Shown here in pieces: positions 40,641-62,667 of a stretch of DNA of 64,000 bases. Under the pieces are notes generated by a model that worked only from the letters and a program-made list of their open reading frames with translations, made no database searches and was not told the DNA's origin. The translations under genes and the position numbers were made by a program. The stretch is taken from IMG/VR virus record IMGVR_UViG_3300045988_095709, positions 33,509-97,508 of that record; one strand, written 5' to 3'. Within the stretch, counting starts at the first letter, position 1, and each line of letters starts with the position of its first letter. Origin of the DNA: a virus.

Positions 40641-40641
40641 T

Positions 40642-43600
40642 ATGGATATAAAAAGAATGCAAGGCGTCGCTTCATAGATTGCAGTATAGAATGCAAATCA
40701 ATGGGAGTGGGACGTACTTAGACGAGAGCGTCTTAGAGAATTAAGCAAAAGAAGATAGTAGAATAATAATACGGGATCTTCTAATACTAAATAGAAGGAA
40801 CAACAGCAATAGAACGAGTAGGCTCAATAGTCGCAACAAGGCGGCTTTAAGCCTACTTATTCTGCTACATAGAGTTCTCAAAATAAAAACATAAATCTAC
40901 ATCCTTTCTTTCTGAATGACGACGATTCAAATACAGATCCTAATTAGTTTTTATAGCCTATAGAGGTTTAGAATATGGGCTGGAATACACAAACTAAGAA
41001 TTGGATAAACGAAGGATCTACTGGAAATCAACAAAGAAGAATAAATAACAGAAACGAAATATTAGCTAGATCTAAATATAATGTTGATTTATAGTTGCAA
41101 AGAAAGAGAAACATAGCAGAAAATAGTAGGAATGGAGATATGGATTTCTATTATGCTCCATACGAAGATGCTGTAAAAGAATACGAAAAAGAAAAGCAGT
41201 GGTATATAAATACAGATCCTAGAGTATTAGAAGCTAAAAGAAAATACGAATAGATAAAGTCAGGAGAACAGCCTGAAGGATATTTTGACAGAGCTTTGTA
41301 TGCGTTAGGTCAGATATCTACTCTCGATGTGCACGGTGTTGTTAACGGAATACAATCGATATTTGCTGGTAATAAAGCTAAAAAACAAGATTTACTAAAC
41401 GATGCGTACAACGTATGGATGTAGAGAAAAAATGAGACACAGATAGCTACATCTAATGGTAAACTACAAATAGCTGATTAGATATCTAACGTGTTAGACT
41501 CTTCTTCTATAGATAGATATGTAGATGTATGTAACCAATTAATAGCAGATACAGATAGAAGAAATAGTCTTATAGACAAATATACTAGTAGAACAGGATA
41601 GGGTATTACTAGAGAAGAGTCTTTGGAATTAGACATGTTGAAAAACAGAATAAATACACTTACTAAGGAAAAAGACGAATTTGAAAAAAACATAGAATCT
41701 GCAGGAACATACGAATCTAATACTTTGTTGGGAGCTGCAATATCTAATGCGCAAGAATATTTAACCAGTGGAGGAGGTTCTTTTAATTTTGATTTTGGAA
41801 CTGGACTTGGTGGATCTCTATTAGGATTTAGAGAGAACATAACCAAATTGTAGAAAGGATTGGCTACAAGAAATCCTCAGATGGTTGAAGAAGCAAGACA
41901 GAACCTTAAAAGAATAAGAGGTGCTTACGAGAATCAATCTTAGAAAATGAAAAATCTCTGGAGAAAAGATATCGAAAGAGATACTAAAGATTTGAATAGT
42001 TATACCAGCAAATATACAGTTAGTGATTACTTTTTAAATAAAGAACAAGAAGCAAATCAAATATTAAATCCGTTCAATCCTAAGAAGTTGTGGATGGCTC
42101 CTGGTCTTTTAGGAGCATCTTTGTCTGATACTAATAAAATGGCTGTTAGCACAGCTACTGGACTTCTTACTATGTTGCCGATAGGAAGAGCTGCACGAGT
42201 AGGATTACAAGCTGCAAACTATGTGTCGTAGGTAGCTCAGGGAGCAGACGAAAACTTTGCTAACGTAGATTAGGCATACAAAGAGATAGTAAGATCGTCT
42301 TTGACTGAACAAGGATAGTATAGAACGTTTTTATAGGACGGTAGAGAAGCTATCGGAAATCCTGCTGCTACTGACGAGGATATAATAAACGCTTATTTCA
42401 GAGGAGATTATATTCCCAAAGACATAAAAGTCAGAAAGACTTTAATGAATGCTACTACAGGTTCAATGAAGTAGTTCATGTAGGGACAGGGAGTTAATCT
42501 ATTAGACTCTTGGATAGACATGGCTATAGAAACTACACCTGTTGGTAAGTTTGCAAAACTGTCCAAAATAGAAGCTGTAAAGGGCGCAAAACAAGGTCTT
42601 GCGAACATTGGAGAATCGTTAGCTGGAACTAAAGCTGGTCAATTTGTAACAAGTGCTCTAAAGAATTCAAAAGGAAAAGCTACACAGCTTGTAGACAAGA
42701 TGGTAGAGTATGGAGTACGAAGAACAGCAAACGTTTCACAGATAGCCAAAGAGATGCCAAAAAGACTTCTACAGACTAGATATAATCTTGGAGTAGCAAA
42801 TAGAGCAGTAAAAGATATAGCTAAGAGATCTGTGATAGGAGCCTACTCTGAAGCAGTAGAAGAAGGTTTGCAGCAAGAACAGCAATACGAAAGAATGCAC
42901 AATCCTTCTGATTAGTACTATGATGTCTATAAATAGATTCCTAATACTATACTGGGAGGTCCTAGATTGTGGTATTCTTTATTGTTCAAAGATCCAGACA
43001 AGGCTTCGTAGGAAGAATAGGAAATATGGCAAAGCATGGCTGGTGGTATATTAGGATCTTTTGTACAAGGAGGTTCAATGAATATTGTTCGTACTGGAGT
43101 AGACGCTGTACAACAGATGAAGGATGGAGATATCATACTCAACAATATAATAGCTGATAAAATAAACGGTGACACTCAAATCGAAAAGGCAAAGTTGTAT
43201 TCTAAAAAACTAAGAACATAGAGGGGAAAACAAAACCTGATAGATGTATTAGATTAGTATTAGCAATATAATGATAAACTAAATCAATCATATAAAGAAG
43301 GTGGTGTAAAATAGGGAATACCAGAAGAGTGGATAGCTGAAGATAAAGCTATGGTGTAGGATATAGAAAACATTCGATATTCACAAAAAACACAACAGTT
43401 AGCTAATAGATTGGGAATCAAAAATAAAAAGTTCAATCTTATAGACAACGACGATTACGATCTACTTGTAGCGATGCTATATAGAAATCAACAGCAAATA
43501 AAAGAAGACAACGATTCTTTAAGTGAGGTTGTACGTAATCAAGAAAAACAAACTCCTATTACTTTTAACCAGTTCTTAGAAAATCAAGTAAGTGCTGGAA

Positions 43601-46600
43601 ATTTAGATTAGAATTTCTTATAGAGTTATATCGGAGAGCAAAACGGAATAACAAGTTTGGTAAATACTGAAAATTTATCAGAAGAAGAGTTAAACAATGT
43701 TTAGAAAAAATATCAAGAATTACAAAATAGATATAATAATTACATTTCTAACATAGATACGATAGCTAAGCTTGCTGCTAATATGAAAACTCTTCAAGAG
43801 ATAAAAGCTCTTGATAGACTTAACGGTAGACAGTCTTTTATACAAAAACGCGTAGAAAGAGAAGTCAATAAAATAAAACAAAATATAAATAAAATATACG
43901 AACAGCAAGGAAAGCAAGCTCATAAGATGGATACTCTTTCTGACGTAGAAGATTTTTATAAGAAAGCAGGTCTTCCTATAAGTGAGGATTATATAAATAA
44001 CATAAAAACTATAGATGAATACAAATTACAACGAGATTTATCTATAGAAAAAGCTTATAAATTTATAACAGATCCCAAATACGCTAAAAAACAACTGTCT
44101 CAATACAAAGAAACTAAAAAACAAGACGAGTATTTACAACAACAAGTTGAGTCTGACTACTATGATAAAGTTCTACACGATTATGCCGTACAAGACGCTG
44201 AAATAAACGACAGTAATAATATATATGTCGGAGAAGATGGAAAAACTTATGCGGTAAGACTGAATGTAGCAAAAGACGAAAATGGAGAAGACGTTGAGTA
44301 TTATTCTAAACATCTATATGATCCAAAAACTGACGTAATGGACAGAAGTGAACTTCCTTTCGATAAAGAAGAATGGTTCGACGGAAGAGATCAGATAGAT
44401 GATATGACGCAAATAAAATCTCCTCAACTTAGAGAAAACGACGGATCTGAAGAACGTGTAGAAGAATTTTCTAAAAGACGAGATGTAAACGAATAGAAAC
44501 AAAAATATACTCAAGATCTATTAAACGATAAGAGTAGAAATGGTTATACAAGTAGAGCGAATCGTATAGAATCTTTTGTAGATGAAAATTATTCTCCGTA
44601 CAAAAGAGGAAAACAGTATTTCTTAAAGAACGGAGAAGAAGAATTAGAGATAACAAAGACGGAATATAATTACGCTAAATGGTATAAGAAAAACTATTAT
44701 ACAGAACAACAAGAGGAAACACAAGACGATGTTCAAACCGAATAGGAAAATATAGACGGACAGCGTGATAACGTTGAACCACAGGTTTAGAAAGAAGAGA
44801 AACCTTCTGGACCAGAAGAATCTCAGAACACTGAACAAGAACAACCGATAACAAATAAAGAAGTAGAACAACCTGCGAGCGAACCTGAACAGAATCAATA
44901 GGAACAACAAGATTAGGAAGAAGATCAGAAGGTTCCAGATATAAAAATGACAGACGCTCAGAAAAATGTTATATAGGATCTTTCTCAGTTTAAGGTAGAA
45001 GGTAATAAAAAAATAAGATACGATTTGCGTTCTCCTATGGATTATTTTATAGAAGACGAAGATGGAAATATACAAGCGTATCCTAGAGTACATAGTAAAC
45101 TTAAGAAGATGTTCGAATTAGACCATACTGTATATGACAATATGAATTCTATATTCGAAGAACTTGAGAAATACAGACTTGATTTTATCGATGCATTCAA
45201 ACATAGAAATGACAATCAAGATGCCGCAGATAAATATAAAAAGTCTAAAATTTCATACATAAATAAAATAAAACAGTTACAATAGGAATACAACGAGTCA
45301 TTATTGAAAACTGTAAAAAATAATGAAAACTTGTACGATTTCTATAATGTTATTTTGGATGGATATTATTCTAACGATAATATACTAATGAGCAAATCCA
45401 CTACCGATCATATATCTAAAATAGTAGGAAATAGGATTGGTGATAAGGTACAGTTACCTGCTACTTCTGTAATATCTGGTACAATAGTTGACGAAATATG
45501 TAGAAGATGTTTTAGTGGAGAAGATGTTAAAAACGAACCGAGATTCAAAATGGACGATTCTACATTCGAACAACTTAAACAAGACATAATAGATGTAAAG
45601 TCTGACTTCGAAAGCAAAGGTTGGATACTACTTCCGCAACAATATTGTTGGTATACTGAATTAGAAGGAATAGGAAGAATCGCAGGAGAAACAGATATGT
45701 TGGCTGTTGATACTGACGGTTCTGTATATCTTATCGACTTTAAAACAAGTAAGAGATCTTATAAATACGGAACTCAAGTTAAAATTAGTGGGGATAAGTT
45801 AATCACACAACCTTCTAATTACGTAGAAGCTATAGACTGGAGTTTTGCAAAATCTAACTTTTCAGCAAGAGACGAATATAGAACACAGTTTACTTTGTAC
45901 TCTATGATGATACAACAGTGTACTATGTAGAGGCAGAAAGTAAAAACAATAAATATATTAGGATTTACCGTAAAAGCTTCTGTTTCAGATAATGATCTTG
46001 TACAAATTAAATCAATAGAAAAACCTAATTTTATAGAGTTAGAAATACAGGATGATTTGAATACTTATTTGATTTTTGACGAAGATTCTTAGAACACAAT
46101 AAGAAAAGAAAAAGAAAATTATTTAATTCTCATAAATCATATAGAAAATCAGTTACAATCTGATAAAAACTATTTAAATCAGCATTTCGATGAAATAAAT
46201 AAGAGTTCAAACTTATATAGAGAGTTAGAACAACTTTCTACTAGAACTAAAGATATAAAATCTAGAATAAATAAAATAGATATAAACAAAGATCCTGTAT
46301 CTGAATTGAAAAACATTCACGATCAATATCTGTAGTTATCTACTGATTACAGTAATGCTGTACAAAAAGTATAGGATTACTTATCTTAGAAAGCTGAACA
46401 ATATCAACAAGAACAAACACCTACAGTATCTACACAAAGTATACCTGTAGATATACAGTGGGACTTTAAAGAAATAGAAAAATACGATCGTGTATGGTAT
46501 ATAAACGTATCTAGGCAGAACGAAAAGCTTAGACAATTCAGAAGGATTACTACAAATAAAGATTTTATCGAAAACACTACTTTCTATTTGGATACAAACA

Positions 46601-49600
46601 TTAAAACGTTGATGAATCATGATTACATGATAACGTTTGAAAAAATAGTATATCACACTAAGGATCAAAACGGAAACGACGTATAGTTTGTATTAGAAGG
46701 AGATGACGCTAGAAGTGTATCTATTTACTTTGCAAAATACGATTAGGACAGAAGACCGTACGGATACGGATAGAATCCTTTAGTAAAACAAATAAAGGAA
46801 GCGTTACAACAAAACGAAGAAAACATAAAAAACAAAAACTTCCAATTAGTTTTGACAGGATTATCCAGAACAAATGGAGTCATAATAAGTCTTAAAGAAA
46901 ACAAAAATGTAAAAGACACGTTCGATTTTACAGAAGAATAGATAGAACACCTGTTAGAAAATGGTACAGACCGAGTAGGTGTTACTGATAAAATGGGTGT
47001 TGTAAAAACTATAGATAAAGCAAACAAAACTATATACGGAGACGGTATATATGCAAACTCAGGAGAACGTAGATTATCTCCTGGACAAGTAGTACTGATA
47101 CACGATTTAAAATATAACGAGGATAAAGGTAACGGCAACCATAAAATACCAATCGTACTCTTACCGAAAAAGATAACAAATGCCGATGCTGATCTTATTA
47201 TAAACCTACTGAAAGACACAAGTAAGTAGGAATTGGCTGTTACAAATTCTGGTATTGTTGGACCTATAACAAAATATTAGTTGTTATCTACACTCGTAAG
47301 ATTCGGTCGTGGTGCACAAAATACAGGAAACGATTTCGTATTTAGATACAAAGAAATAGACGGTGTTGCACAAAGAGACATTGTAGAACTACAAATCAGA
47401 GATGAAGAAGGTCAATTAATTACTACAGAATATGACTTGAATAATCCTGTATCTGTAGGTCAATTAAAACGACGTTTAGTAGAAGATGTATACTTATATA
47501 CAAATAATATATCTGTATTAAACAAGGCTACAAATAAGGCAAGAAACACAGATAAAAACAACATATTCTCACAGTTACAAGAATTCTTCGAAAACAATCC
47601 TAATATAAACTAGATAAGTTATGGAGAGAGTATGGTGTTCAATCGTGCAGACGTAGATCCTGACGGAGATGGTTCGTACAAAGGAATAACAGGATTACAC
47701 TGGATGATAAGACACGGTTGGCTTACTACTAACTACGGTGGTGTTACAGATTCTATTTTCTCGGCTACAGGAGTTTAGGGAATAATACCGAACAAACAGT
47801 AGTAGAATATAGAACAACATCCTGAACCAGAAAAAGTAGAAAATATAGACGTATAGCCAGAATAGAATGTCGGCGGAAACATAGGATACGAGAAAGAAGA
47901 TGTTGAAGATGTTAGTATAGACGACGTTAACGAACTTCTTGGTGGAGACTTTGTGGCAGACAACGAAGGTCTTTTCCATAAGCAAAAAGGAAAAGCTAAT
48001 GTAAAGATAGAAGAGAATGTAGCAAGAAGAACTATAAAACGAATTGTTGGAGACTCTATACCTTTACAGATGATAGACGATATTATATCGGTAATGTATG
48101 ATGGAGATGTTGTCGGTATGTGTACTGCAGCTAGTATATATATTTCTAGACAAGCTGAAGCCGGTACTGATTACCACGAGTCTTTCCATGCTGTTGTCGA
48201 ACTTCTTATGGATAAAAATAAGCGTGAGAGTTTGTATAAATTTACTAAGAATAAATTTAACATGCAAAACGCTACAGACGAAGAAGTTGCGGAAGCTTTA
48301 GCAGATTTATTCTTCTTATATAGTAAAGATGCTATACATTTTGAGGGAAGAATTGGAAGACTGTTCTCTTATGTAAAAGACTGGATAAATGCATTTAAAG
48401 TTACAAAAAGTTTAAGGCTTGCTAATTTGTTTGTGAATGCAGATTTTGGAAAATTCGCAAATAAAACTATAAGCAAAGAACAGGTTAACGATTTTAAAAA
48501 TAGATTCCCAAAAGGTCTTAACTTGAAAATAAAAGGTAAGAACGGAAATGGTGTAGAATTTAAACACATATACACATCTACTCAATTAGACGACGCAATT
48601 AATTATTTAGTATATCTGATAATAAAGAATGAAGGTATAAGTAGTATTGGTTCTAATCTAGACAAGTTAGATATTTCTAAGGAGCATCTTACTAATACGA
48701 AACTTGACGAAAACAACAAACCGATTTCTAATTTCGGAAAAACTTATAGAATAGTAACAATGAGCGGTAAGTCTGAATAGGAATTGGATGATTTAGTAAA
48801 AGAAGGAAAGATAACGCCTCTCGTTAAAAACAACGTGTTAATAATGAGAGAAATATTTAACAATTACGAAGACATCAAACCTATGATACTCGCAAAGTTG
48901 AAGAGCATGGGTGTTAACTCTAGACTAGACTAGGAATAGACAGAAAGAGAAAACAAAGAGGGAGACGATGTTAGTCAAATATCACGAGATGTAGATTCTC
49001 ACGCAGACGAATTCTACACACATTCGATGTCTGACGATTTATCTTCTAATATGATATTCTTCTTAAGTACTAGACCTGCATTAAGATATGCTACATAGGA
49101 GGATGTTGATAATGGAATTGTACAATCTTTGTATAAGAAAGATAGAAACGGAAACGAACAGAGAGTTTTAGTATCTTCTTCTAAAAATTCTATGGGAATG
49201 ACTACTTTCCTAGATTACAAACAAGTACACTAGTTATTATTATCAAATCTTCATGATGTGAAAGACGTTGAAGATTTATATAACAAACTTAAAAAACTAG
49301 GAAAGAACGATTATCTTTATGAAAATATAGCAAGAAGTTTATATCAATTTAGATTCCAATCTTATAAGAGATATACCAACAGAAAAGACGGAATGGATAA
49401 CGTACCTATGGTAATGTATAAAGGAAAATTATTAGATCCTAAACATTATATTTCTAATAAAAACAAATTATCATAGGAAGATCTGTATCCTAAGTTTGTA
49501 AGATGGTCTCATGATGTACTCGACAAGAACGGAAAAATAATATTCAAAGCCGGAGATGTGATACAGGGTGCAAGTATTGTGATGAATTACGATATGGAAA

Positions 49601-52600
49601 ATCTTACTACATAGTTGTTCCAATCTATAAAATCTCAAAAGTTAGATTATAACTTCTTGTATATAAGATCTGTAGTTGACGATAACGGAAAAGTTATAAA
49701 CGGAAATTATTTATATTCTTACCATCCTACCAACTACGATAGATCGCAGCAACAATATCCAATACAATGGTTTGATAACTTACGTTCTTCTTTCAGCGGA
49801 TTATTTACTAAGTCTGGAGATCTTAATAAGAATTTTACAAACTTTAAAGACTCTAAAAAATATCTTTCTGAATTGTATAACGCGTTAACGTTGGCGAAAG
49901 CTAATAACGGAAAGATTACAATAAACAAAGTAAATTACGACTTGACAAAAGGATCTGACTTAAGCGTTGTTATATCGTAGTTTGTAAAAAGTATGAGAAA
50001 CATAGGCGTAGATATAGATACCAATATGGTTCAATATTTACTACAACAGATGAACCCTGATGAACCTATGTTATACTTGGCATTCGTAGATTTAATAACT
50101 AAGGGAGGAAATAATAGTGTATACAGTATATTATAGCTTATAAAAGATAACGGTATTCTAGACTTAATGCAAAATAGGCTAGAGGCTGGAGACATATCTT
50201 TCTTTACAAAAGATCAACCTAAAAACAATAGAATACACGATAGTATAAATACCGGATCGTATGTTTATACTAAGAGTGGCTTCTTAACGTTATTGGCAAT
50301 GTGGCAAGGAAAATTTAGAACATCTACTACAGAACTTATGACAATAGGTCCTGAAAACACAAAGATGTATACTTTTGCTCAAAACCATACAGCTTCGGAT
50401 ACTATATACGATCTTAATAATTCTTATGACGAAAACGGAAATCTTGTAAAAGGATGTACACTTGAAGAGTTAAGTTAGGTGGATTATGTATTAGCTAGAG
50501 ATCAGCAAGGTAATAGAATAGGATCTATTATAGGAAAAACTCTTATGAATAAATATTGGAATCCTAATCATAATAAATTACAACTGAGAACTTCTGCTGG
50601 AACTAAATCTTCTACTTATTCTGACGAAGGATCTAAGTATTCTAAGACTACTTCTAGAGAAGACTATATGGCTAAAGTACAGATGTTGTTATAGGGAGAT
50701 ATAATATTCCCGGCATTGTCTGATAAATCTACATATTTCTCTATAAGCGGAATAAAACTTCCAGGACTTAATTTCGATAACAGTTCTTCATCGATAGGAA
50801 GTCTTCCGGTATTTAACTCAAACACTGGAACAATGATGTTTATACACAATGTGATGGAGAATTCTGATGATAAGATAAGAAGTATTGAGGATAATCCGAA
50901 AAGCGGATATAGATATAACGACGTTCTTGATTAGTTTATAGAATATTTTACTTGTGAAAATATAAATGTAAACAAAACTATAAACGACTTAGGATTGTAG
51001 GAATAGAACGCAACAAATACTCCGATATCAGAAAATCAGAAAATTACAAACTATCACAAAGGAAGTATAAATGGTGCAAGATATTTGAGTTTGATGGGAA
51101 TATACGCATTAGAAGATATGGAAATAAAGATAAACGGAAAAACTAAATCTTATAAAAAGGGAGATTATATACCGTTTAACTTTAAAGCAAATACTCCTAG
51201 TGAAGGTATACTTGAAGGAAGAAATCTTGCTCAGTCTCTTTTCTTTGACCAACCTATAGAAAAACAAAGAGTGATAGTAGCTGAAATATTAAGAAGAAGA
51301 CTTGATGATACGTTGAACGACTTGTTAGAAATGGGAATAATAAGCAAAAACGACAATGCTTCTAAAGCAAAAGGTATTGTTACTCATGATTATTATTCTT
51401 ATAAAAATAATTATTTTGACGTAGATAAGATAAACAGATTAGCTAGGTGTTATTCTAACATAGAAGGAATACAAACTTTCGGAAATTCTGCATTAGAGTC
51501 TTTAGGTGTAGTAGCGATGGCGTACGATATAATGTGTAAGAGTATGATGTCTATGGAAGAAACAAGACGTTTCTTTACGGGAATGCCTCAGTTCTTTAAA
51601 ACAAAATATTCTTCAGAAGGAAATTTAGTAGATTATGGAACAGACGAAACTAAACGTTACGGAGGTGAAGGTTCTACTGGTTCTAATAACCGTGAAGACA
51701 TGGCTAATATACCAGAAGAGTATACTTGTGCAGAGCTAAAAGATTGGGAAATTTCGTCTGCTATAAGCGAATCTTTGGAACAGGCTTTCAAAGAAGGAGA
51801 ATATAGAGAGTCGTTATCTGTATACTATAGCGAAAATCCATCGTTAGGTAAACCTTCCGACGCTTATAATATGTCTATAGAAGACGTAGAAAAAGAATTA
51901 GAAAAAACAGGAATGTTAGAAATGATTGACATGAAGATAAAAAAAGAATCTAATTCTTATAAAAGCGAAATAAACGTTACAGACGGTACTGCTTACATAA
52001 CAGATACTATGGCAGAAAATCTGTTAAGAATGCGAGGAGCGTTTAATAACGAAATAGCAGAAGCGTTTGAAAGACTGAGAGGCGATAAAGGATACCTAAA
52101 TAGTGCACAAGATTATAAACTTATACACGAAGCACTTATAAGTACATAGAAATATTCTGCTTTCGGATACAGAATGCAAAACGGAATACCGGTACACTTC
52201 TACGATAAGTTCGCATTGTTCCCAATGTTCAAAGGAATATCTTTCGGATTTAGTAGAGATCTTTATGATAAGATGCGTAAAGAGGGTGTAGATATGGTAA
52301 TGTTTAATTCTGCTGTAAAATCTGGATCTTAGGGTGCGTAGAAGTTCTCTCCTGATATGACAAAAGAAGATTTATAGAAGTTTACATTTAAAAACAATAT
52401 CTATAAACAAAAGTATAAGTACATAAGAAGGCAGTTGAATACAGATCCTAGAACTGATGAAGTAATGGCTGCAGGAACACAGGCTATGAAGGTTTCTCTC
52501 AGTGTACTTAGAGATTGGCAAACATATTCTATACAAAATCCTGACGGAACGGAACAAACTTTGAATAAAAACGAAGTATTGAGTGCTATAATGGACAGGA

Positions 52601-55600
52601 TGAACAGAATGGCTGAAATAGGAAGTCAGTAGATAAAAGAAGAATTCTTTACCAACGGAAAGCTAGATTACGCAAAATTAAAAGATTTCATAGTAAGAGA
52701 ACTTTCTAGTAGAAATGCCGATAAGAATATACTTGAAGCTGTCAATTTGGATTATCTTACTGACGAGAACGGAAATATAATTCCGGAAAGCGTACATTTT
52801 GTTACTGACATAAACGTAGTTTCTAATATGGCATGGATAGAAAGTATATTGATATCACATATAAATAAAAAAGTAATAGATATTAATTTTAAAGGAAATG
52901 CTTTCTATCAGAGATCCGTGTTTGGTCTTGATAGCCCTACTGTATTAAACGACGATTAGGTAAAATACGAAATGAATGGTGGTAAACCTCTGCAGATGAT
53001 AAATGAAGAGGGAAGTATGGACGCAGTAATAAGTATAGACTACTTTATGGATATTATACCTAAGAAATATAGATATAATTTCAAAAAAGCAAAACAATGG
53101 TTGATTGACAACGATATTATATCTGGTATAAAAACAGGAACAAAAGAGTGGAATAATGCTAAAGCTAGTGTGTTATCATACCGTATTCCTACTCAGGCGG
53201 CATCTTCTATTCACGCGTTAAGATTTGTAGACGTATTACCAATCGTTAGAGATACTATAATACTACCTAGAGAGTTTACTAAGATTACTGGTTCTGACTT
53301 CGATATTGATAAATTGTATTTATCGTCTTTCTATTATAATGTAAACAAAGAAACCGGAAAGTCATCTTTGATAATGGACGACGAATATGAAAATACAGCA
53401 AATCAACTTCTTTCTATATATCTTTCTTTGATTAAAGATGCTGGAAAACAAGTTACAGACGGAAAAATATCTAAGTCTAGATACATGCATATATTGAACA
53501 GATCTATTGATAACGATACAGAGTTGATAACCAATGTTCTTTCTGATATAGAATCTGGAAAAACTAAAAAGACCGTAGAGCCATATCAATTTGAAAATCT
53601 AACCAATCAAGTAAAGATAAAACAATCATTTGCTACAGGTAAACTCGGAATAGGACCGTTTGCGTTGAATAACAACAATCAGGTACTTACTATGTTGTAC
53701 AACGTTTCTTTCAAAGATTTTGGAGACAACGATAAAAGTTTATTAACTTATATCGGAATGAACAGGTTAGATAGGATTACAGATATAAACGGAAACCATA
53801 TATTATCGTGGATATCTGCGATGATAAACGCACACGTGGACGTTGCGAAGGATCCGTATATATTAAGATTAAATGTAAATAAATTTACATATAATCTAGT
53901 AAATCTACTTATACGTTGTGGTCTAGGAGATAGAGCTTTATATTTCATCAACAACCCTATAATAAAAGATTTAGCTAGAATAAGTGAAGAAACGCAAGGA
54001 AGAATAGTTGATGAACCGGAAATAAGCGTAAGAAAAAGGTTTGAAAACGCTTAGGAACAGTATATACGTGACTGTAAGTTTAGAGATGAGTCTTTTTCTA
54101 AGTTGTATATGAAAGCTAAGGACGAAGAAAAAAGAGCTGCTGAAAAGAAAGATTTTGATAAAATCGCAGAAATAATGGGAATGGATAGAGACGGTCTTCC
54201 AATAAATAGTATTAAAATATTTAAAGACGGTCAGTATTATACTGTTGATGGTACATATATAATGAGAGACATTTTAAAAAATAAAGACGTACTCATAGAT
54301 GAAAACAAACCGTTAAGTATGGATAATCTTAGAGACGACGATCAGTTTTATTACGTGTTGGAAGGTGATAGAAGAGTTACTCCAAAAGAAGTTTAGATGT
54401 ATATATTCTTAGCTATGCAAAATTTAAACATAAATGCAGCGGCTCTTTCTGCAGTAGTACAGGCTACTAAAGTAGACACTAAAAAGCACGGTAAAACTGT
54501 AAGAGAACAATCAGAATATAATGCTAAATACGAATAGTTATTAAGAGGTGGTATATCTAACATGTTTGAAAATTTGGATAACATGTTGACAAAATCTTAT
54601 ATAAACGTTAAAACTAATCTCGGAATAGGTATTCCTAAGAAAATTCTTTAGGAGTTTTCTATAACAGCTACAGACAATTTTAGATACGTAGTGGATTCTA
54701 TATGCTCTATGTACTTAAACAACTAGACTTCTAAAACTAAAACATCGATACAGAATGCTGTTCTCGCATACGTTAAACAGATTGCTATGAATAAAGCTAT
54801 GGAAGATAACGGAATAACTAGCGAAAAGTGGATGGAGATGATACAAGGAAGAAAAACGTTAGCACAGAGAATAACAAACCTTCAGAACATATTGATTTCG
54901 GATGTAGATGGTAAATATAAATCTTTAGCTACTAACGGAACAATAATAAATCCATTACTTGCTAATTTGCGAAGAATTCCATATCAACCACAATACGGAC
55001 AGGTTCACTACGATCTTATAGGGTTAGAAAACAAAGGAGCTGACGATAGTGAATTGAGTAATAACTATATTGATGCATGGTAGCAACTTTTAGATTATGA
55101 TGATCCTCAATATCCAAAAGAGTCTGAAGCTATAAGGAAGCTAGCTAGCGATCTTGCTGTTTATGCGTTTGTGACATCTTCTGATACTAAAGGAACAAAT
55201 AAATTTTTCAAATATGTTCCTGTTTCTTGGAGAAATGATTTTGGGTATTCAGAGTATATAAGATAGGCTTTTTAGTACTTTAAAGACGGAAACGTAAAAG
55301 TACAAGAAGATGCTGAAGATGGATTTTTAACTATAGATCCGTACGAATTAATAATGAATAACTATATGGATCCTAATATTCTACCTACACATAAGATGAA
55401 TAAGTTTATGGGATCTTCTTATCAGTATAGTGAAACGGATTTCTAGGGAAAGATTATAACAAGTAATATATACACAATGATTGCAGGTCTTGTTAACGAT
55501 AGACCTACAATGTATAAATCTGAATACATTACACAATATCCTCCTTTTGTCAGAATACAAAGACCAAATACCAATAGATTTTCTGCAGATTAGTATTTGT

Positions 55601-56760
55601 TGTATAGACTTGCTGCTTACGGTACTAAAACGTTATCTGACGGTAAACAGGTATCTTATCCTGTATATATACTTTTAAATCCTAAAGGTCAGAGAGTTAA
55701 AATAGGTGCTCAAAATTATGATTTCTATTCTGTAGGAAGAGACGATAATTATCAGCACGATTTCTTAAAAGGTGAAACTCCAAACTTCTTAGAAAAAGTA
55801 AAATGGATATAGAAAAACATAGAAAAAATACAGGAGTTGAGAGCAGCTAAAACAGCAACAGTAGGAGACGTGAGATAGTTGTTCGACATACCGGCAGGAG
55901 ATAGTTATTCTATACAAACGTTCGGAAATATATAGAGAACAGTATATCAAAATGAAAAATACGGAAATATAGGAGAAGCTGAAATACAACACGACTAGTT
56001 ACAATTAGAGCTCGGACCATATGGTGAATGGGAAATAAAAGGCGATAATACTTCTAAATTTGATACAAACAAAGCATTAGATACATACACATTGCATTCT
56101 GGTGGAGCAAAAGGTTCAGACTCTTACTGGGGAACAGCAGGAGAGAAATACGGCTTATTGTACGACGATAAACACCAAAGACACTATTATCACCAAGAAA
56201 AAACTCCTGTAGGAAATGTAGAAATATCTAATTAGGATTACGAAGAAGGAAGATACAAGGCAGCATAGGCTGCTTCAGCAAGATGGGGATATAACTTGAA
56301 AACAATGAAAGATAATAGATTGATTAGAAATTGGGCTCAGGTTAAATATTCAGATGCAATATTTGCAATAGGAACTCTTGTTAAACCCGGACAACCGATA
56401 GATCCAAACAACAATAAAGAAACAAGAATTGCTAAGAAAGTAATAGTTTCTGGAGGTACCGGATATGCTGTAGAGATGGCTATACAAGCTGGTAAACCTG
56501 TATACGTATTCGATTAGAGGAGAAACAGATGGTATAAGAACATAGACGGAAAATGGTCTAAATCAGATATTCCTGTACTTACTAAAAATTTCGCAGGTAT
56601 CGGAACTAGAGAGTTATAGGATAACGGAAAATAGGCTATAGAAGACGTATATAAAAAGACTATAGAATAGATGTAGAAGAACTCTACTAATTAGGATATC
56701 GATATCAATATAGAAGATTTCAGTAATCTAAACGAATAGAGACATGAACAATGTGATTAA
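40642..56760 (+). CDS. Giant multidomain virion protein (5372 codons) containing an RNA-polymerase-type DxDxD motif
   Basis: I read frame 1 codon by codon across every gap between 25 same-frame track ORFs, from ATG 40642 to TAA 56758-56760. TAG was the only stop. The last upstream in-frame stop is TAA 40609-40611. Embedded signatures are annotated separately below. Confidence 0.8.
45304..45930 (+). other. PD-(D/E)XK (RecB/Cas4-type) nuclease domain inside the giant protein
   Basis: The sequence ...GETDMLAVDTDGSVYLIDFKTSK... (D-F-K at 45736-45744) is followed by ...RTQFTLYSMM..., which fits the QxxxY motif typical of RecB-family nucleases. Confidence 0.55.
48100..48310 (+). other. Candidate zincin metallopeptidase motif inside the giant protein
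   Basis: HESFH (48175-48189) fits HExxH. It is followed 35 residues later by EALAD, which fits the ExxxD third-ligand motif of gluzincins. Confidence 0.4.
52972..54054 (+). other. Putative catalytic region of a crAss-type virion RNA polymerase
   Basis: The motif ..TKITGSDFDIDKLY.. places DFDID at 53296-53310. This DxDxD metal-binding motif is analogous to NADFDGD of multisubunit RNAP beta-prime, and lies within a very large virion-module protein as in crAss-like phages. Confidence 0.55.
56092..56514 (+). other. SLOG / DprA / DUF2493-like Rossmannoid domain at the C-terminus of the giant protein
   Basis: The signatures are LHSGGAKGSDSYWG ... NRLIRNWAQVKYSDAIFAIG ... VSGGTGYAVEMAIQAGKPVYVFD. 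These fit the GGAxGxD and GGTxxxxxxA..GKPV pattern. Confidence 0.45.
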
Positions 56761-56772
56761 AATTATTAAATT

Positions 56773-59700
56773 ATGGTATGTATAATAGAGAGTAAATATT
56801 AGAAAGAAATAGAAGATCTTACTGGTATAATTGGAGACAGGGAGACTGCTATATCACTATTATGCGCAAATAACGGGTTCACCTTAGACAAAACACCCTA
56901 GGGTGAACCGTCAGATTTGTATCAATAGTTATTAGGACAGTTCTCAAACGACGAAGCAGGAAGAAGACGTGCTATTATATACAAAGCTAGAACGTTCGGA
57001 AGTTCTTTCGTTAATAAGTATGGAAAATGGTTTGAATAGGACGCATAGTCGTAGAATAACAATTTTGACTCTAACGGTGAACCTGTTTTAAGTATAGTAC
57101 TTGGTGATAAAAATTTGTTTCAAAATAGTACGGAGTAGGATTTTTCACAACTTAAGAGAGAGTATGTCAGTCGTTTAGTAAACGAACTTCTTTTTGAAAA
57201 CCCAAACGCTAGTCAAATAGAAATACTAAACAAAGAAATAGAAGCACAGCAAGAGTGGGCTAATCAATAGGCTAATCAGTTGGACGAAGATGTTGAAATG
57301 TCCAGAATAGACGCAGAAGATACAAAAAGACTATTGAAAAACGAGAACATATTGATTGGGAAGGCTAGTAAATCTGTAATATAGATGTTTAGAAAAGCAA
57401 AAGAAAGAGCTAAAAAACTTAGAGAAAATCTAAACATAAAAAGTCTAAATCTGAAAGATGACTTATCAAACAAAATAGACGAGACAGCCAACCAGATAAT
57501 ATCTGCAACTATAAGTAAGGAAAAGGCTTATAAATCTAAAAACTTCTCTTCTTCTACTTCTTATGGAGATATAAACTAGTAGATATAGAACTAGGAAAAT
57601 TCTAGAAAAATACGTGGATATAGAAAAAGTATAATAGAAGCACAAAATAGTAAAAATGCAAAGAAAGAATTAGATGCAAAACTTGAAATGTTCTTGTATT
57701 TTATAGAAAATGCATCTGACGAAATAAATAAAATATTATCAATGCTTCTTAATGCTGAGGCTAATGAGTATAAAAAGATATATTATAAAGTAGATAGCGT
57801 TGGAAATATAATATACAACGATGAAAACAATAAATATTACACCGAACAAAACGAAAAAGAAGGTGTACAATACGGTACGTTTGATTTTAACGACCTTCAG
57901 TATATAAACACTGATGTTATTGGATTTTACGACGGTGTACTACATAATATATTATTGATATTAGACTAGCTTGACGAAAATGATCCGAAAGTTAAATTGC
58001 TTAAAGACTCCATAAGAATTTCAGATGTATGCAATAATATATTTTCAGCTAAAAGAAAGTATCAGATAGCTCTAGAAAATAAAGTAATGGATATGGTCAG
58101 AGAAGGTCTTGACGAAATTCCAGAAGAAAGACTAGACTCTGAAATGAAAGCAAGATTGATAGTAAGAACTAAAAAATGGCTTAGAAATCAGTACGATTTT
58201 GGTGATGTTACTGTATTCGAAAGAGTTATAGGAATAGGAAGTAGATCTAAAAGTTCACTGATAAGACTTATTCAGGAAGTAATAAACTAGATAGAAAACG
58301 AAATACGTATAGAAACAAGTAAGAAAGGTTTTAAATTAAATGATCTATACAGAAAAGCGTTAAATAAAAACAAAAAATATATGCTTCCCGGTATGAGTTT
58401 GCAGTAGTTACTGATGGGTAAAGACAGAAACGGTTTACCAAACGGAGATTTCGTAAGACCTATAAATTACAGACAGTATCAACAAGATTTAGAGAACATT
58501 TAGGCTGAATTACTATTTGGAAAAGATGGTATTAGAGACCGAATTGCAAATCTAAAAGACGATAGTGGTAATTATATATTCAGATATCCAGATACGAACA
58601 CTTACGAAATAGAATTTGATGAACACGGAGAACCAATATTACCAAATCATCCAAAACTAGAACAAGCATATAAGAATTACTATAAGAAACTGGAGTCTTG
58701 GAAATGCGATCATTCTGAAAGACCGTATACTAAAAAATATTATATTGAAAGGTTGGATCATTTGTCTATATCTACTATACAAATGATGAATAAGTTGTAT
58801 AGTGGAAGAAACGAGATAATACAAGCTGCTACAGTAGACGGATAGTTCAGACCTGATAAACTTTCTGATTTCTAGTTAGACGAGCTGAATAGATACAATC
58901 AAGAAATACAACAGTTGTCCAGTCCTTTTTATATTGACGGAACAGAAAAAGATCCTTACACTCCAGAAGGAATTGCAGCTAGAGAGATAAGTAGTTGGCA
59001 AAATACAATATCTGACCACATAAAATATAAGACTAGTATTGAAAAGTACAATCAAGCATTATCTTTTGCGAAAGATAAGAAAAAATTTGCTAGATTGTTC
59101 AGTAAGTGGATAATAAATCCTAAATTATACGAATGGTTGGATGATGATTTTCAGATGAATAATTCGTACGTCAAATCTCTTAAAAAGACCATTAATAAAC
59201 TTATGGCTCCGTACAAAACAGATAAAATCGGAGAAGTCAAATGGGATATGCTTTTTGATTTTGAAACTGGAAAAATCAAAAATGAGAAATGGTTTGAAAG
59301 TATGATTGAAGTTTCTAAAAGATATAGTGAAGAAATATCTTTATAGTATAAAGATTATTCTAACGAAGATGATAACGGTGGTACAAAATATAATGAACTA
59401 ATAGACGAGGTGTATGTACCAAAACCAGGATTTCAGTACGATTTTTCATATACTTATGAAAACTCTATGCTTAAATACATGAAAGATGCGTATTAGAATT
59501 ACTTGGTAGAAAACAAAGGTTATAGTACACAACAGGCTAGTTCTATCGCTGCGAATACATTTTCGTATACTTATATGACAGCAAAGGGTAAACTTATAAG
59601 TAAACCTATTTCAATATTTATGATGCGCGTTCCTAAAGAAAAGAAACAATTTAAAGGTATAGATGGAAATTATTACAAATCTTTTATAAGAACGCCTTCT

Positions 59701-62073
59701 TCTATGTTTTCAGAGATAGATTTAGAAAACTCTTCTAGTGATTATATAAATAAAAATTACGATAGACAGTCAGATTAGACTTTACAACCAAAAGAGTCTA
59801 TATATAGAGATGAAAACTATTATAAATATATAGAAGGAAAGAAAGAGATGAAAGAATTGTACGATGAATTAATTAGTACAATGGAACAATCTTTTTAGAA
59901 CTATCCTTTTGTGAAGAAATATGATTATAGATTGCCACAGAGAGGAGAAACAAGAAATTCATCTATACTTTCTAGAAATCTATTGACAAGATTGGGTGTA
60001 AACGTAGGAGAAGTTTTAGATAGAACTCTGTCTGTAAACGAAAACGATTTGGATATAAATTTCCAAGAATAGGTATTACGACCAGATGGAACACCTATTA
60101 AAAATATACCAATAAGGTGGATAAGAAGACTTAGTAAACCTGAGTATATATCTTCAGATATAATAGGTTCTGTTACTTTAATGTATGGAATGTCTGTAAA
60201 CTATAAATTAAAAAATCAAAAAGTTTCTCAAGTAGAGTCTATTTTAAACTATATAAGAAGTAACGATCCTAGTAGTTCTTCAAAATAGGCAGAAGCTATA
60301 CAAGGAATGATAGATAGACAATTCTATGAAGAACAGACATCTGGACTGAAAGTAAATCCGACGCCAGAATAGTGGAAACATGCTGATTGGTTTAGAAGAT
60401 ATTTCTGGAGTGCTAAATCATGGTTGAAAAAAGTAGGACAAATAAGAGGTATCGCATAGTTAGGTATGTTGGCATTCAACTTAGGTTCTGGTATAGTTTC
60501 GTCTTTAGACGCTACTACTAGTATGGTTATAGACGTTCTTACTGGAAAATATATAAACTATAAAGACTTATCTTATGCATTCAGCCAGTTAATGTTTGAT
60601 TTACCTAAAGCTATAAACAGCTTAGGTAAAATAAAAACCGATAGTGATATATGCGCTCAGATGTAGTATTTTGGACTAGCAAAAGGAAACGCTCAGACGT
60701 TTAGAAACACCGATTATAGTAAACTGAGAAGATTTTTATCTGACGGATTACTTATGAAACAATTTGCAATAGGCGATTATACAATCAACGCTTTAAATAT
60801 GACATCTGTACTATATAATTATAGATTGTATGTAGATTAGGATGGAAAACGTCAACTATTAAATAAACCTGACTTCATAAGAAAGGCTATAAACGACGGA
60901 ATGACATATAAACAAGCCAAAAGTGCTTATAATTCCGCAAAGATAGCAAAACGTTTCCTTAAACGTGGAAAAGACGGCATGATTACTGTAGATAAAGAGT
61001 TTGAAAAGGATATGTACAGAATAGGACAGTAGATAAGAAGTAGATCGTCAATATACAACGGTGTTATAAATGATGCTGAACGTACATATTTCCAATCTAA
61101 TGTGTGGTTGTCTTTGATATCAATGCTTCGTAATTTCTTTATAGTAGGTATTTGGGAAAGATTTTAGACTTATCGAGATTTTCAAATGAGTGTCGAATAG
61201 ACTTTTGATCCTGAAACAGGAGAGATACTAAACGAATACGGAGGAGAAAATTTAAATCCTCAACAAGCTGCCAATATAAAGAAAGAATAGAGATATTATG
61301 CAGGAGGGTACAACTTCGATACCGGACAGATAGAAAACGGAACAACATTATCGTTCTTTAGATACTTATCTAAACTATATCCTTATCTTAAGTATTCAAC
61401 AGACGTAATATTCTCAGGAATGAGTAAGTACGATCCACAAAGAGAGTAGTACTTAAAAAATAACAATCTAAACGCGTAGGAAATATACGGAGCTTAGAAA
61501 ATAACTATGGAATTTACAGCAGCGATGTTATTTATATTAGCCAGTGCAAGTATATATAGAATAGCTAAAACAAAAGATCCAGATGACGATGATGCTTATT
61601 TGTGGTATCTTATCAACTATGTTATGGTTCGTCTCCCTATCGAAAGATTTACGTGGATGTCGTTAGATACAGTGAATGACCTTATAAATTCTATCACAGC
61701 AGCTTCTTCTGATTTAAAACGAAAAGGACATTTGATAGATATGGTTATGGAAGCGTTAGGATTAAGTAAGCACAAACTCACTGACGAAATGCCTTCAAAC
61801 AGTCAATATGCAGGTCAACAGCGATGGTTTTATCATCTTTGCAACATCGGTTCTAGTTTTGGTTTGCATAACTACTATGTTAATATGCCTAAAGCGTTAG
61901 GTGGAGGAGGAGCTAAACCTTTGATGCGTAAAGCATATTTCTATTATGATAAATTACCATTTGGTAATTATATTTACGATAGAGGTAAAAAGACAGACAA
62001 AGTAGATAAAAGAAAAAAGAATGTCGGAGTTTCTGTTATTAGCGATGACAGTAATGACGGATTTGATAGATGA
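56773..62073 (+). CDS. Second giant virion protein (1766 codons), function unknown
   Basis: I read frame 1 codon by codon from ATG 56773 to TGA 62071-62073 and only TAG interrupts it, first at codon 10. The C-terminal third has hydrophobic segments (60466-60560, 61507-61575). Confidence 0.75.
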
Positions 62074-62133: not shown

Positions 62134-62182
62134 AAAGGAGACTATAATTCCGATTTTTTCGGAACTATAATCTCCTTTTTTT
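62134..62182. terminator. Bidirectional intrinsic terminator at the convergence of the plus and minus transcription units
   Basis: AAAGGAGACTATAATTCCG (62134-62152) pairs with CGGAACTATAATCTCCTTT (60160-62178 region, 62160-62178), giving 19 bp with 2 mismatches. A T-run lies downstream on the plus strand and an A-run upstream, which is a T-run on the minus strand. It overlaps the last codons of the minus-strand gene 62142-62660. Confidence 0.7.
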
Positions 62183-62660: not shown

Positions 62661-62667
62661 ATTGATT

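What the first reader, a model, noticed from the sequence alone, without database searches (positions are those of the whole stretch)
52972..54054. DFDID motif marks the probable catalytic centre of a virion RNA polymerase
The sequence ...REFTKITGSDFDIDKLYLSSF... (DFDID at 53296-53310) is a DxDxD triad in a context resembling the Mg-binding NADFDGD loop of double-psi beta-barrel RNAPs. It is the kind of motif described for crAss-like phage RNAPs. It lies in a well-conserved-looking, low-TAG stretch of 360 codons that is uninterrupted in the standard code.
Basis: partly seen in the sequence, partly recalled or inferred. Interest (0 to 1): 0.7.

Follow-up and report, generated by a model that had tools for sequence, protein, structure and literature searches.

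The report
crAss-like phage virion RNA polymerase
The DFDID motif is the magnesium-binding catalytic loop of the RNA polymerase that crAss-like gut phages are thought to carry in their particles; it is a correct call, but it is an ordinary new member of a family that has already been described structurally and biochemically.

Summary
DFDID sits at 53296-53310 inside a standard-code ORF, 52972-54054. That ORF is only a TAG-free piece of a 5,372-codon gene (40642-56760, + strand) in which TAG is read as an amino acid, almost certainly Gln.

The gene aligns by BLASTP with the crystallised virion RNA polymerase gp66 of Cellulophaga phage phi14:2 (E=3e-17 and 9e-14). TGSDFDIDKLYL lies exactly on gp66 TGSDFDIDKMYV, whose 1361-DFDID-1365 aspartates are each essential for RNA synthesis. 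A family profile hits PDB 6VR4 at E=1.7e-159. AlphaFold models of the window ORF and of a two-barrel homologue both retrieve 6VR4 first (E=1e-10 and 2e-27).

The three aspartates are invariant in 57 aligned homologues and in 80 of 80 IMG/VR loci. Two invariant lysines (K3847, K3903) mark the second barrel.

Gene order (TerL, portal, MCP, then this gene, then the replication block on the opposite strand) and the best matches place the window in Suoliviridae, the delta group of Crassvirales. Giant TAG-recoded RNAP fusion genes of 4,300-6,400 codons are already annotated in that family.

Verdict: new member of a known kind, low interest. Side notes are a conserved C-terminal cysteine, an HExxH module and a DprA-like tail.

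The parts
40642..56760 (+). Giant TAG-recoded gene (5,372 codons from the first ATG, about 615 kDa) that contains the RNAP module. It is the orthologue of the single 4,328-6,386-aa CDSs of Suoliviridae phages.
   Evidence: The frame is open with only TAA/TGA as stops and holds 104 in-frame TAG. The ATG lies 2 nt after the upstream stop. Codon changes against a 96.5%-identical strain are 380 synonymous to 107 non-synonymous. Orthologues are cr130_1 (5,801 aa), cr272_1 (6,386 aa), cr118_1 (4,946 aa), cr60_1 (4,494 aa) and cr109_1 (4,328 aa).
48580..55959 (+). RNAP module equivalent to phi14:2 gp66 residues 108-2176 (aa 2657-5116 of the frame numbered from 40612).
   Evidence: An HMM of six Suoliviridae orthologues matches gp66 at E=3.9e-76. 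hmmalign gives the residue mapping. Profile A1 hits PDB 6VR4_A at E=1.7e-159.
51949..52416 (+). Predicted DPBB-B (beta-like barrel), aa about 3780-3935. It carries the invariant lysines K3847 (52150-52152) and K3903 (52318-52320).
   Evidence: K3847 is conserved in 27 of 27 sequences and K3903 in 34 of 34. They align with gp66 K1012 and K1065, just N-terminal of the gp66 connector (residues 1095-1238) (bioRxiv 10.1101/2020.03.07.982082). Beta strands are present at the equivalent place in the model of homologue P0002.
52417..52902 (+). Connector between the two barrels (aa about 3936-4097). It includes the conserved RxQ (R3939, Q3941) and GTQ (3955-3957) elements.
   Evidence: It maps to the gp66 connector 1095-1238.
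52903..53346 (+). Predicted DPBB-A (beta'-like barrel), aa about 4098-4245. It includes YRIPTQ (53179-53196).
   Evidence: R4191, I4192, P4193, Q4195 and S4199 are invariant. They align with gp66 1321-YRIPNQ. The model of the window ORF matches 6VR4.
53296..53310 (+). DFDID, the predicted Mg2+-binding catalytic loop (D4229, D4231, D4233).
   Evidence: It aligns exactly with gp66 D1361, D1363 and D1365. Each of those aspartates is essential for RNA synthesis (bioRxiv 10.1101/2020.03.07.982082). The aspartates are invariant in A2, and 80 of 80 IMG/VR loci carry GSDFDID.
53563..54234 (+). Conserved helical region after DPBB-A (aa 4318-4541), including ...ILSWISAMINAHVDVAKDPYI.... It is homologous to gp66 1518-1730. 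It probably holds the bridge helix and trigger loop, but that assignment is inferred.
   Evidence: BLASTP E=9e-14. V4409, D4410 and K4413 are invariant or nearly so. This part of the model is helical.
48175..48189 (+). HExxH motif (YHESFH) with a conserved acidic residue about 40 aa downstream. It lies just N-terminal of the gp66-equivalent part and is a possible zincin-like module.
   Evidence: Exactly one HExxH is present in each of six Suoliviridae orthologues, about 1,470-1,700 aa before DFDID, in an alignable block. There is no HMM hit.
56080..56520 (+). C-terminal DprA-like (Rossmann/SLOG-type) domain fused after the RNAP module.
   Evidence: PHROG 768 matches at E=1.5e-8. It aligns with the C-terminal region of cr130_1 gp79 (E=2e-19). 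RefSeq names the cr130_1 and cr109_1 orthologues after this domain.
56770..62073 (+). Second giant TAG-recoded gene of the transcription block (1,767 codons). It is the homologue of cr130_1 gp80.
   Evidence: E=6e-32. Codon changes against the close strain are 119 synonymous to 31 non-synonymous.

Best explanation
DFDID (53296-53310) is the metal-binding catalytic loop of the beta'-like double-psi beta-barrel of a single-chain 'two-barrel' DNA-dependent RNA polymerase. The polymerase belongs to the family defined by gp66 of crAss-like phage phi14:2.

In this phage, a member or close relative of Suoliviridae (the delta group of Crassvirales), the polymerase module is aa about 2657-5116 of a 5,372-residue late protein. 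That protein is translated with TAG read as Gln.

The inferred mechanism is as follows. D4229, D4231 and D4233 coordinate the catalytic Mg2+. They face the beta-like barrel, which carries K3847 and K3903, across the active-site cleft. The protein is made late, packaged into the capsid as cargo and ejected with the DNA. It then transcribes the early genes, which are presumably the opposite-strand replication block that starts at about 62.1 kb.

Shown here: homology, motif identity and conservation, predicted fold, recoding and purifying selection, and gene context. Inferred from gp66 and PhiCrAss001 work: Mg2+ catalysis, DNA dependence, packaging, ejection and early-gene specificity.
For: Homology to gp66: BLASTP gives E=3e-17 (aa 3628-4237 against gp66 851-1369) and E=9e-14 (4318-4541 against 1518-1730), with TGSDFDIDKLYL on TGSDFDIDKMYV. 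tblastn of the 360-aa ORF hits 84 phage records, the 75 listed all crAss-like, including phi14:2 g066, annotated 'Catalytic RNA polymerase subunit'. A family profile hits 6VR4_A at E=1.7e-159.

Fold: AlphaFold models retrieve 6VR4 first at E=1.1e-10 (window ORF) and E=2.4e-27 (two-barrel homologue).

Conservation: the aspartates are invariant. K3847 and K3903 are invariant and map to gp66 K1012 and K1065.

Expression and recoding: codon changes are 380 synonymous to 107 non-synonymous across the in-frame TAGs. Of 28 changes involving TAG, 23 exchange it with CAG or CAA.

Context: TerL, portal and MCP lie upstream and an exonuclease lies on the opposite strand downstream. This is the same order as in cr130_1.

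Literature: each gp66 aspartate is essential, and the enzyme is packaged and transcribes early genes (bioRxiv 10.1101/2020.03.07.982082). The delta group uses TAG recoding and has a transcription block of large multidomain proteins with DxDxD (PMC7886860). RNAP-associated proteins are cargo in PhiCrAss001 virions (PMC10172136).
Against: There is no direct evidence of activity, packaging or timing for this protein.

Single-sequence phmmer against the PDB, Pfam, PHROGs and NCBIfam all failed to recognise the RNAP part. Identification therefore depends on BLAST to gp66, a family profile and predicted structure.

Identity to gp66 is only about 21%.

The barrel boundaries and the bridge-helix assignment come from alignment to gp66 and from secondary structure, not from inspection of coordinates. 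The two-barrel model is of a 40%-identical homologue, because the tool would not accept the TAG-to-Q translation of the window.

No suppressor tRNA lies in the window.

A 615-kDa polypeptide may have to be processed before it works, and that was not tested.
Confidence: 0.93

Rival explanations
1. The RNAP module does not act as part of a 615-kDa chain. The giant product is a polyprotein that is cleaved, possibly by its own HExxH module just upstream of the gp66-equivalent part. Cleavage would release a gp66-sized polymerase plus separate N-terminal and DprA-like pieces. The catalytic role of DFDID is unchanged; only the mature form differs.
For: In phi14:2 and PhiCrAss001 the equivalent functions are separate proteins: gp67, gp66 and gp65 in phi14:2, and gp47, gp49 and gp50 in PhiCrAss001. 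A single conserved HExxH with a downstream acidic residue sits at the N-terminal edge of the gp66-equivalent region in all six Suoliviridae orthologues examined.
Against: No protease family matches the HExxH region. No cleavage site is known. Fusion as one ORF is conserved across Suoliviridae, which fits function as one chain equally well.
Confidence: 0.2
2. The enzyme is a non-virion polymerase. It is made and used inside the cell for middle or late transcription rather than packaged and ejected.
For: Nothing in the sequence proves packaging. Some phages, such as PhiKZ and P23-45, encode both virion and non-virion two-barrel RNAPs (PMC10770324). The second-best Foldseek hit is the PhiKZ non-virion RNAP (E=0.04).
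Against: The gene lies at the end of the structural/late block and uses late-gene TAG recoding. Its orthologues gp66 and the PhiCrAss001 RNAP-associated proteins were found in virions by mass spectrometry. A late, recoded gene cannot supply early transcription unless its product is carried in from the previous infection cycle.
Confidence: 0.04
3. DFDID is a chance DxDxD in a structural or cargo protein, or the region is a decayed pseudogene broken by stop codons.
For: DxDxD occurs 3 times in the protein against 2.3 expected. Under the standard code the region is broken into short ORFs. Pfam and PHROGs give no RNAP hit.
Against: The motif context is identical to the gp66 catalytic loop, and homology extends over about 2,000 residues. 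The aspartates are invariant. Purifying selection acts across the TAGs, and TAG exchanges with CAG.
Confidence: 0.01

Closest known systems
gp66 of Cellulophaga phage phi14:2 (PDB 6VR4), the virion-packaged DNA-dependent RNAP of a crAss-like phage
   Same: The catalytic loop is the same, TGSDFDIDK[LM]Y, with Ile rather than Gly at position 4. The upstream YRIP[TN]Q motif, the DPBB-B lysines, the connector and the post-barrel helices are shared. Homology covers gp66 108-2176. It is the top and only significant structural match. Its position in the genome is the same.
   Different: Identity is only about 21%. gp66 is a separate 2,180-aa protein. Here the module is embedded in a 5,372-aa chain, with about 2,650 extra N-terminal residues that include an HExxH block and a DprA-like C-terminal domain. 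This gene is TAG-recoded (104 in-frame TAG), whereas the phi14:2 g066 coding sequence translates under the standard bacterial code with no internal stop. gp67 and gp65 of phi14:2 show no BLAST similarity to the extra parts.
Giant transcription-block genes of Suoliviridae (delta-group Crassvirales), e.g. cr130_1 YP_010113266 (5,801 aa), cr272_1 (6,386 aa), cr118_1 (4,946 aa), cr60_1 (4,494 aa), cr109_1 (4,328 aa)
   Same: The architecture is the same: HExxH, then about 1,500-1,700 aa, then GSDFDID. There is a DprA-like tail in cr130_1 and cr109_1. The neighbours are the same, and four of the five are TAG-recoded.
   Different: Identity to the best GenBank record is only 30% over the RNAP module and 49% in the core. 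The N-terminal 2,290 residues or so have no BLAST match to cr130_1. The window lacks the group I intron that splits the DFDID codons in cr131_1 and several metagenomic relatives. RefSeq names these proteins after minor domains ('DprA-like', 'exonuclease V', 'DNA helicase', 'nuclear pore complex protein-like') and not as RNAP.
Multisubunit cellular RNAP beta' / Rpb1 (DPBB with NADFDGD) and Neurospora QDE-1 (RNAi RdRP/DdRP)
   Same: The principle is the same: a two-barrel active site with an aspartate triad on one barrel and basic residues on the other. Weak Foldseek hits are almost all beta'/Rpb1-type chains. The gp66 paper reports QDE-1 as the closest structure to gp66.
   Different: There is no sequence-level signal. 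Foldseek E-values are 0.04-2, and QDE-1 scores E=1.8. Position 4 of the motif is Ile, not Gly. Both barrels lie in one chain, unlike in cellular RNAPs.
N4-like (Schitoviridae) giant virion RNAP
   Same: The biological logic is the same: a giant polymerase of several thousand residues is packaged in the capsid and ejected to transcribe early genes (PMC13434306 abstract).
   Different: By my own knowledge, the N4 enzyme is a T7-like right-hand polymerase and not a two-barrel enzyme. No similarity to it was found in any search here.

Membership tests
crAss-like (Crassvirales) two-barrel virion RNAP, gp66 family | Significant sequence homology to phi14:2 gp66 across the catalytic core | tested here: met
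   BLASTP gives E=3e-17 and 9e-14. Profile A1 hits 6VR4_A at E=1.7e-159. The orthologue HMM matches gp66 at E=3.9e-76, covering gp66 108-1791, and the match extends to residue 2176 with A1.
crAss-like (Crassvirales) two-barrel virion RNAP, gp66 family | DFDxD motif with Ile or Val at position 4 and three conserved aspartates | tested here: met
   DFDID lies at 53296-53310 and aligns with gp66 1361-1365. D109, D111 and D113 of the ORF are invariant in 57 sequences. Of 98 homologues, 85 carry DFD[IV]D and the rest are fragments that end at or before the motif. In IMG/VR, 80 of 80 loci carry it.
crAss-like (Crassvirales) two-barrel virion RNAP, gp66 family | Two DPBB domains in one polypeptide joined by a connector of about 140 residues, with conserved basic residues on the beta-like barrel | tested here: met
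   Residue mapping places K3847 and K3903 (invariant) on gp66 K1012 and K1065 before the connector (1095-1238), and DFDID after it. The model of two-barrel homologue P0002 aligns to 6VR4 over 1,109 columns at E=2.4e-27. Caveat: the full two-barrel model is of a 40%-identical homologue, not of the window protein.
crAss-like (Crassvirales) two-barrel virion RNAP, gp66 family | Predicted fold around the motif matches the gp66 structure | tested here: met
   The model of the window ORF has pLDDT 85.5 and pTM 0.77. Foldseek returns 6vr4_A at E=1.1e-10, probability 1.00 and TM 0.69, and it is the only hit with E<=0.001.
crAss-like (Crassvirales) two-barrel virion RNAP, gp66 family | Location in the 'transcription block' of giant genes at the end of the structural/late module of a crAss-like genome | tested here: met
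   TerL (4376-6442), portal (6406-8940) and MCP (11720-13243) lie on the same strand. The giant gene comes next, then a second giant gene, then an opposite-strand exonuclease. The order is syntenic with cr130_1, cr272_1 and cr109_1.
crAss-like (Crassvirales) two-barrel virion RNAP, gp66 family | Protein is packaged in the virion and ejected into the host | not testable with these tools
   Known for gp66 (mass spectrometry annotation in NC_021806) and for the PhiCrAss001 cargo proteins. For this protein it is inferred only.
crAss-like (Crassvirales) two-barrel virion RNAP, gp66 family | Mg2+- and DNA-template-dependent RNA synthesis that needs each aspartate | not testable with these tools
   Shown for gp66 (bioRxiv 10.1101/2020.03.07.982082).
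Cellular multisubunit RNAP beta'/Rpb1 | NADFDGD motif with Gly at position 4, and detectable similarity to the beta'/Rpb1 DPBB | tested here: not met
   Position 4 is Ile. There is no sequence hit. Only weak Foldseek hits appear, at E=0.04-2. It works like beta' but is not a member of that family.
Eukaryotic RNAi-type RdRP (QDE-1 family) | Detectable sequence or structural similarity to QDE-1 | tested here: inconclusive
   Foldseek gives 7y7t_A at E=1.8 and probability 0.02 with the 360-aa model. QDE-1 is absent from the top 50 hits with the two-barrel model. The relationship is reported for gp66 by structural superposition but was not reproduced here.

The most novel reading that the evidence does not exclude
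In this lineage the virion RNAP may not be a stand-alone enzyme. It would be the core of a single ejected machine of about 615 kDa that also carries a zincin-like HExxH module and a DprA-like DNA-binding domain. The machine would end in a cysteine within the last few residues. That cysteine is conserved from phi14:2 gp66 and gp67 to all Suoliviridae orthologues examined, although Cys makes up only 0.28% of the protein.

The terminal Cys could be an undescribed packaging, anchoring or ejection determinant. The HExxH and DprA-like modules could mediate self-processing and loading onto single-stranded or melted template; gp66 prefers single-stranded or denatured DNA in vitro.
Probability: 0.12. 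Interest if true: 0.5.

Novelty: new member of a known kind. Interest (0 to 1): 0.15.

Why it matters
The result correctly labels the catalytic centre of a protein that public annotation of related genomes names after minor domains: 'DprA-like', 'exonuclease V', 'DNA helicase' or 'nuclear pore complex protein-like'. Pfam, PHROGs and NCBIfam do not recognise the polymerase part at all. Stop-codon recoding also hides the gene from standard gene callers. The practical value is therefore in annotation: a delta-group crassvirus vRNAP with mapped catalytic residues.

Biologically it adds nothing new. The DFDxD motif, the two-barrel fold, virion packaging and TAG recoding in this phage group are all published. 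The side observations are cheap leads for people who work on crassvirus cargo proteins. These are the conserved C-terminal Cys, the HExxH module at the edge of the RNAP part and the DprA-like fusion.

Tried and rejected
- Single-sequence phmmer of 2,330 aa against PDB sequences found nothing.
- Pfam on all six 1,000-aa chunks found nothing. PHROGs found only the C-terminal DprA-like domain. NCBIfam and PDB searches with the C-terminal, PD-(D/E)xK-like and HExxH regions gave only noise.
I used the window's TAG-free ORF and the homologue P0002 instead.
- A PD-(D/E)xK nuclease reading of aa about 1690-1716 (ETDMLAVD...LIDFK) was considered. The Lys is not conserved in cr130_1 or cr272_1, the block is absent from three other orthologues, and no HMM supports it. 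I do not claim it.
- BLAST of the giant protein and its neighbours against phi14:2 gp65 and gp67-gp70 found no similarity. The idea that the N-terminal part is a fused gp67 therefore rests on position only.
- No tRNA was found in the window. In cr130_1 the nearby tRNA-Gln has anticodon UUG, not CUA, so no suppressor tRNA was identified.
- An exact-sequence look-up of the 360-aa ORF in the assemblies index found no record.
- An Rfam scan of the window found nothing, so the window has no intron.
- Special avoidance of TAG in the catalytic core was rejected. The core is poor in Gln codons in general.
Full report
**Observation.**
The + strand encodes ...LPREFTKITGSDFDIDKLYLSSFYYN..., with DFDID at 53296-53310. 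This lies inside the standard-code ORF 52972-54054, which is 360 aa long.

That ORF is not a gene. In its frame, every stop between 40609 and 56758 is a TAG. When only TAA and TGA are treated as stops, the + strand of the whole window becomes a tight array of long ORFs. One of these is 40612-56760 (5,382 codons) and another is 56770-62073 (1,767 codons). The first ATG of the giant frame (40642) lies two bases after the stop of the upstream ORF. The gene is therefore 40642-56760, which gives 5,372 codons and about 615 kDa. I number residues from 40612, so DFDID is aa 4229-4233.

**Is the recoded ORF real?**
An IMG/VR contig, IMGVR_UViG_3300045988_119203 (locus L012), is 96.5% identical at the nucleotide level over window 42972-64000. 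The comparison shows three things.
- In the giant ORF there are 380 synonymous and 107 non-synonymous codon differences, counted with TAG read as Gln. In the next ORF the counts are 119 and 31. Selection therefore reads straight through the TAGs.
- Of 28 differences that involve a TAG, 23 exchange it with CAG or CAA. None exchanges it with TAA, TGA or TGG. This is direct support for TAG read as Gln.

Homologues also show Gln at TAG-aligned columns three times more often than background, 13% against 4%. No tRNA lies in the window, so the suppressor must lie elsewhere in the genome.

**How special are the motif and the TAG-free run?**
A bare DxDxD is not significant: three occur in this protein against 2.3 expected. 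A TAG-free run of at least 364 codons arises in 6% of random placements of the 104 TAGs. The conserved core is simply poor in Gln codons of every kind. The weight of the finding rests on homology.

**Identity.**
- tblastn of the 360-aa ORF against 50,697 phage records hits 84 records; the 75 listed are all crAss-like phages. The best is cr130_1 (Suoliviridae, Oafivirinae) at 48.7% identity. The list includes phi14:2 g066, annotated 'Catalytic RNA polymerase subunit', at E=1e-12, and the 'putative RNA polymerase' genes of PhiCrAss001 and crAss002.
- BLASTP of the giant protein against gp66 gives two collinear segments. The first is aa 3628-4237 against gp66 851-1369 (E=3e-17). The second is aa 4318-4541 against gp66 1518-1730 (E=9e-14). 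TGSDFDIDKLYL lies on gp66 1358-TGSDFDIDKMYV-1369.
- The gp66 paper shows that 1361-DFDID-1365 is the catalytic motif. Alanine substitution of any one aspartate abolishes RNA synthesis. crAss-like RNAPs carry Ile or Val, not Gly, at position 4. The enzyme is virion-packaged and transcribes early genes (bioRxiv 10.1101/2020.03.07.982082).
- A profile built from the window segment plus 65 metagenomic homologues hits PDB 6VR4_A at E=1.7e-159. Everything else is noise.
- Local HMMs map gp66 108-2176 onto aa 2657-5116, which is window 48580-55959.

1. Conservation. The database search returned 98 homologues. Of these, 85 contain DFD[IV]D. The other 13 are fragments that stop at or before the motif. 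In a 57-sequence alignment that reaches down to 23% identity, R71, I72, P73, Q75, S79, G107, D109, F110, D111 and D113 of the ORF are invariant. All 80 IMG/VR loci retrieved encode GSDFDID.
2. Fold. The AlphaFold2 model of the window's own ORF has pLDDT 85.5 and pTM 0.77. Its only significant Foldseek match in the PDB is 6VR4_A (E=1.1e-10, TM 0.69). Weak hits follow to the PhiKZ non-virion RNAP and to many Pol II, Pol III and other Rpb1-type chains, which are the beta'-type subunits.

I therefore modelled the 40%-identical homologue P0002, which spans both barrels. It has pLDDT 79.2 and matches 6VR4_A at E=2.4e-27 over 1,109 columns.

**Second barrel.**
Upstream of the connector, which is gp66 1095-1238, the family has invariant K3847 (27 of 27 sequences) and K3903 (34 of 34). 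R3939, Q3941, G3955-T-Q3957 and K3960 are conserved nearby. These align with gp66 K1012, K1065, K1098, Q1100, G1114-S-Q1116 and K1119. I assign aa about 3780-3935 to DPBB-B, 3936-4097 to the connector and 4098-4245 to DPBB-A. These boundaries are inferred from the alignment and from secondary structure, not from coordinates.

From memory and not tested: the YRIPTQ...(33 aa)...DFDID arrangement resembles the NRAPTLH...NADFDGD arrangement of bacterial beta'.

**Context and taxonomy.**
TerL (4376-6442), portal (6406-8940) and MCP (11720-13243) lie on the same strand. An exonuclease lies on the opposite strand at 62668-63699. The order is the one seen in cr130_1, cr272_1 and cr109_1.

In all of those genomes the orthologue is a single giant CDS: 5,801, 6,386, 4,946, 4,494 and 4,328 aa in cr130_1, cr272_1, cr118_1, cr60_1 and cr109_1. 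Four of the five are TAG-recoded. Yutin et al. 2021 already described TAG recoding of late genes in the delta group. [quoted passage not shown] PhiCrAss001 virions contain three RNAP-associated cargo proteins (PMC10172136).

The window's protein is divergent. It shares 30% identity with cr130_1 over the RNAP module, and its first 2,290 residues or so have no BLAST match there. Its architecture is nevertheless ordinary for the family.

**Mechanism.**
The best-supported reading is a late-expressed, TAG-recoded, capsid-packaged two-barrel DNA-dependent RNAP. D4229, D4231 and D4233 bind the catalytic Mg2+ opposite the lysines of DPBB-B. After ejection the enzyme transcribes the early genes, presumably the opposite-strand replication block. 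The steps beyond homology, conservation, fold and context are inferred from gp66 and PhiCrAss001. The main open point is whether the 615-kDa chain works intact or is processed.

**Verdict.**
This is a new, divergent member of a known and experimentally characterised family, with low novelty and low interest. Its value is in annotation, because HMM libraries miss it and RefSeq names the orthologues after side domains.

Noticed in passing
window 56752-56754 (Cys, second-to-last codon of the giant gene); also the C-termini in L002/L003 (phi14:2 gp66, gp67), L001, L008-L011, and P0015, P0037, P0045, P0055, P0078, P0088, P0090, P0091, P0094-P0096, P0098: A cysteine lies within the last 1-6 residues of the RNAP-containing protein in very divergent crAss-like phages. 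Examples are the window (...RHEQCD), gp66 (...KQECK), gp67 (...NTIC), cr130 (...HCKGGK), cr118 (...HCKGE), cr60 (...HCKKS), cr272 (...HCKN) and cr109 (...FICNL). Cys makes up only 0.28% of the window protein. It is not mentioned in the gp66 preprint or the PhiCrAss001 atlas. It could be a packaging or ejection determinant.
   Followed up: partly
window 48172-48189 (YHESFH) and about 120 nt downstream: A single HExxH motif with a conserved acidic residue about 40 aa later is present in all six Suoliviridae orthologues examined. It lies about 1,470-1,700 aa before DFDID, just N-terminal of where homology to gp66 begins. No Pfam, NCBIfam or PDB sequence hit was found. It may be a zincin-like peptidase module.
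   Followed up: partly
window 56080-56520: A DprA-like (phrog_768, E=1.5e-8) domain is fused to the C-terminus of the RNAP protein. The same fusion is seen in cr130_1 and cr109_1, whose whole giant proteins RefSeq names 'DprA-like DNA recombination-mediator protein'. A PDB sequence search gave nothing.
   Followed up: partly
L007 (cr131_1, NC_055902) 1775-2700; P0019, P0024, P0025, P0032, P0035, P0038, P0040, P0051, P0057, P0058: In several relatives the RNAP gene is interrupted inside the DFDID codons, after GSD, GSDF or GSDFD. In cr131_1 the insert of about 800 nt gives two sub-threshold Rfam group I intron hits (44.9 and 33.4 bits) and encodes a LAGLIDADG-type ORF. The exons join as GSD|FDIDH. 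The window has no such insert.
   Followed up: yes
window 42972-64000 against L012 (IMGVR_UViG_3300045988_119203): A strain that is 96.5% identical allows a direct test of the genetic code. Of 28 substitutions involving TAG, 23 are exchanges with CAG or CAA and none is with another stop codon. Codon changes are 499 synonymous to 138 non-synonymous over the two giant genes.
   Followed up: yes
window 11720-13243 (MCP); also 62142-63699 on the - strand: The major capsid protein gene contains no TAG codon at all, although the neighbouring late genes are heavily recoded. The opposite-strand genes at the window end also read without TAG as a sense codon. The first point suggests avoidance of the recoded codon in the most highly expressed gene; the second fits early genes using the standard code.
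   Followed up: no
window 45679-45759 (aa about 1690-1716): ETDMLAVD...LIDFK looks like a PD-(D/E)xK nuclease motif, and RefSeq calls the cr118_1 orthologue 'exonuclease V'. However, the Lys is not conserved in cr130_1 or cr272_1, the block is missing from three other orthologues, and no HMM hits it. It remains unverified.
   Followed up: partly
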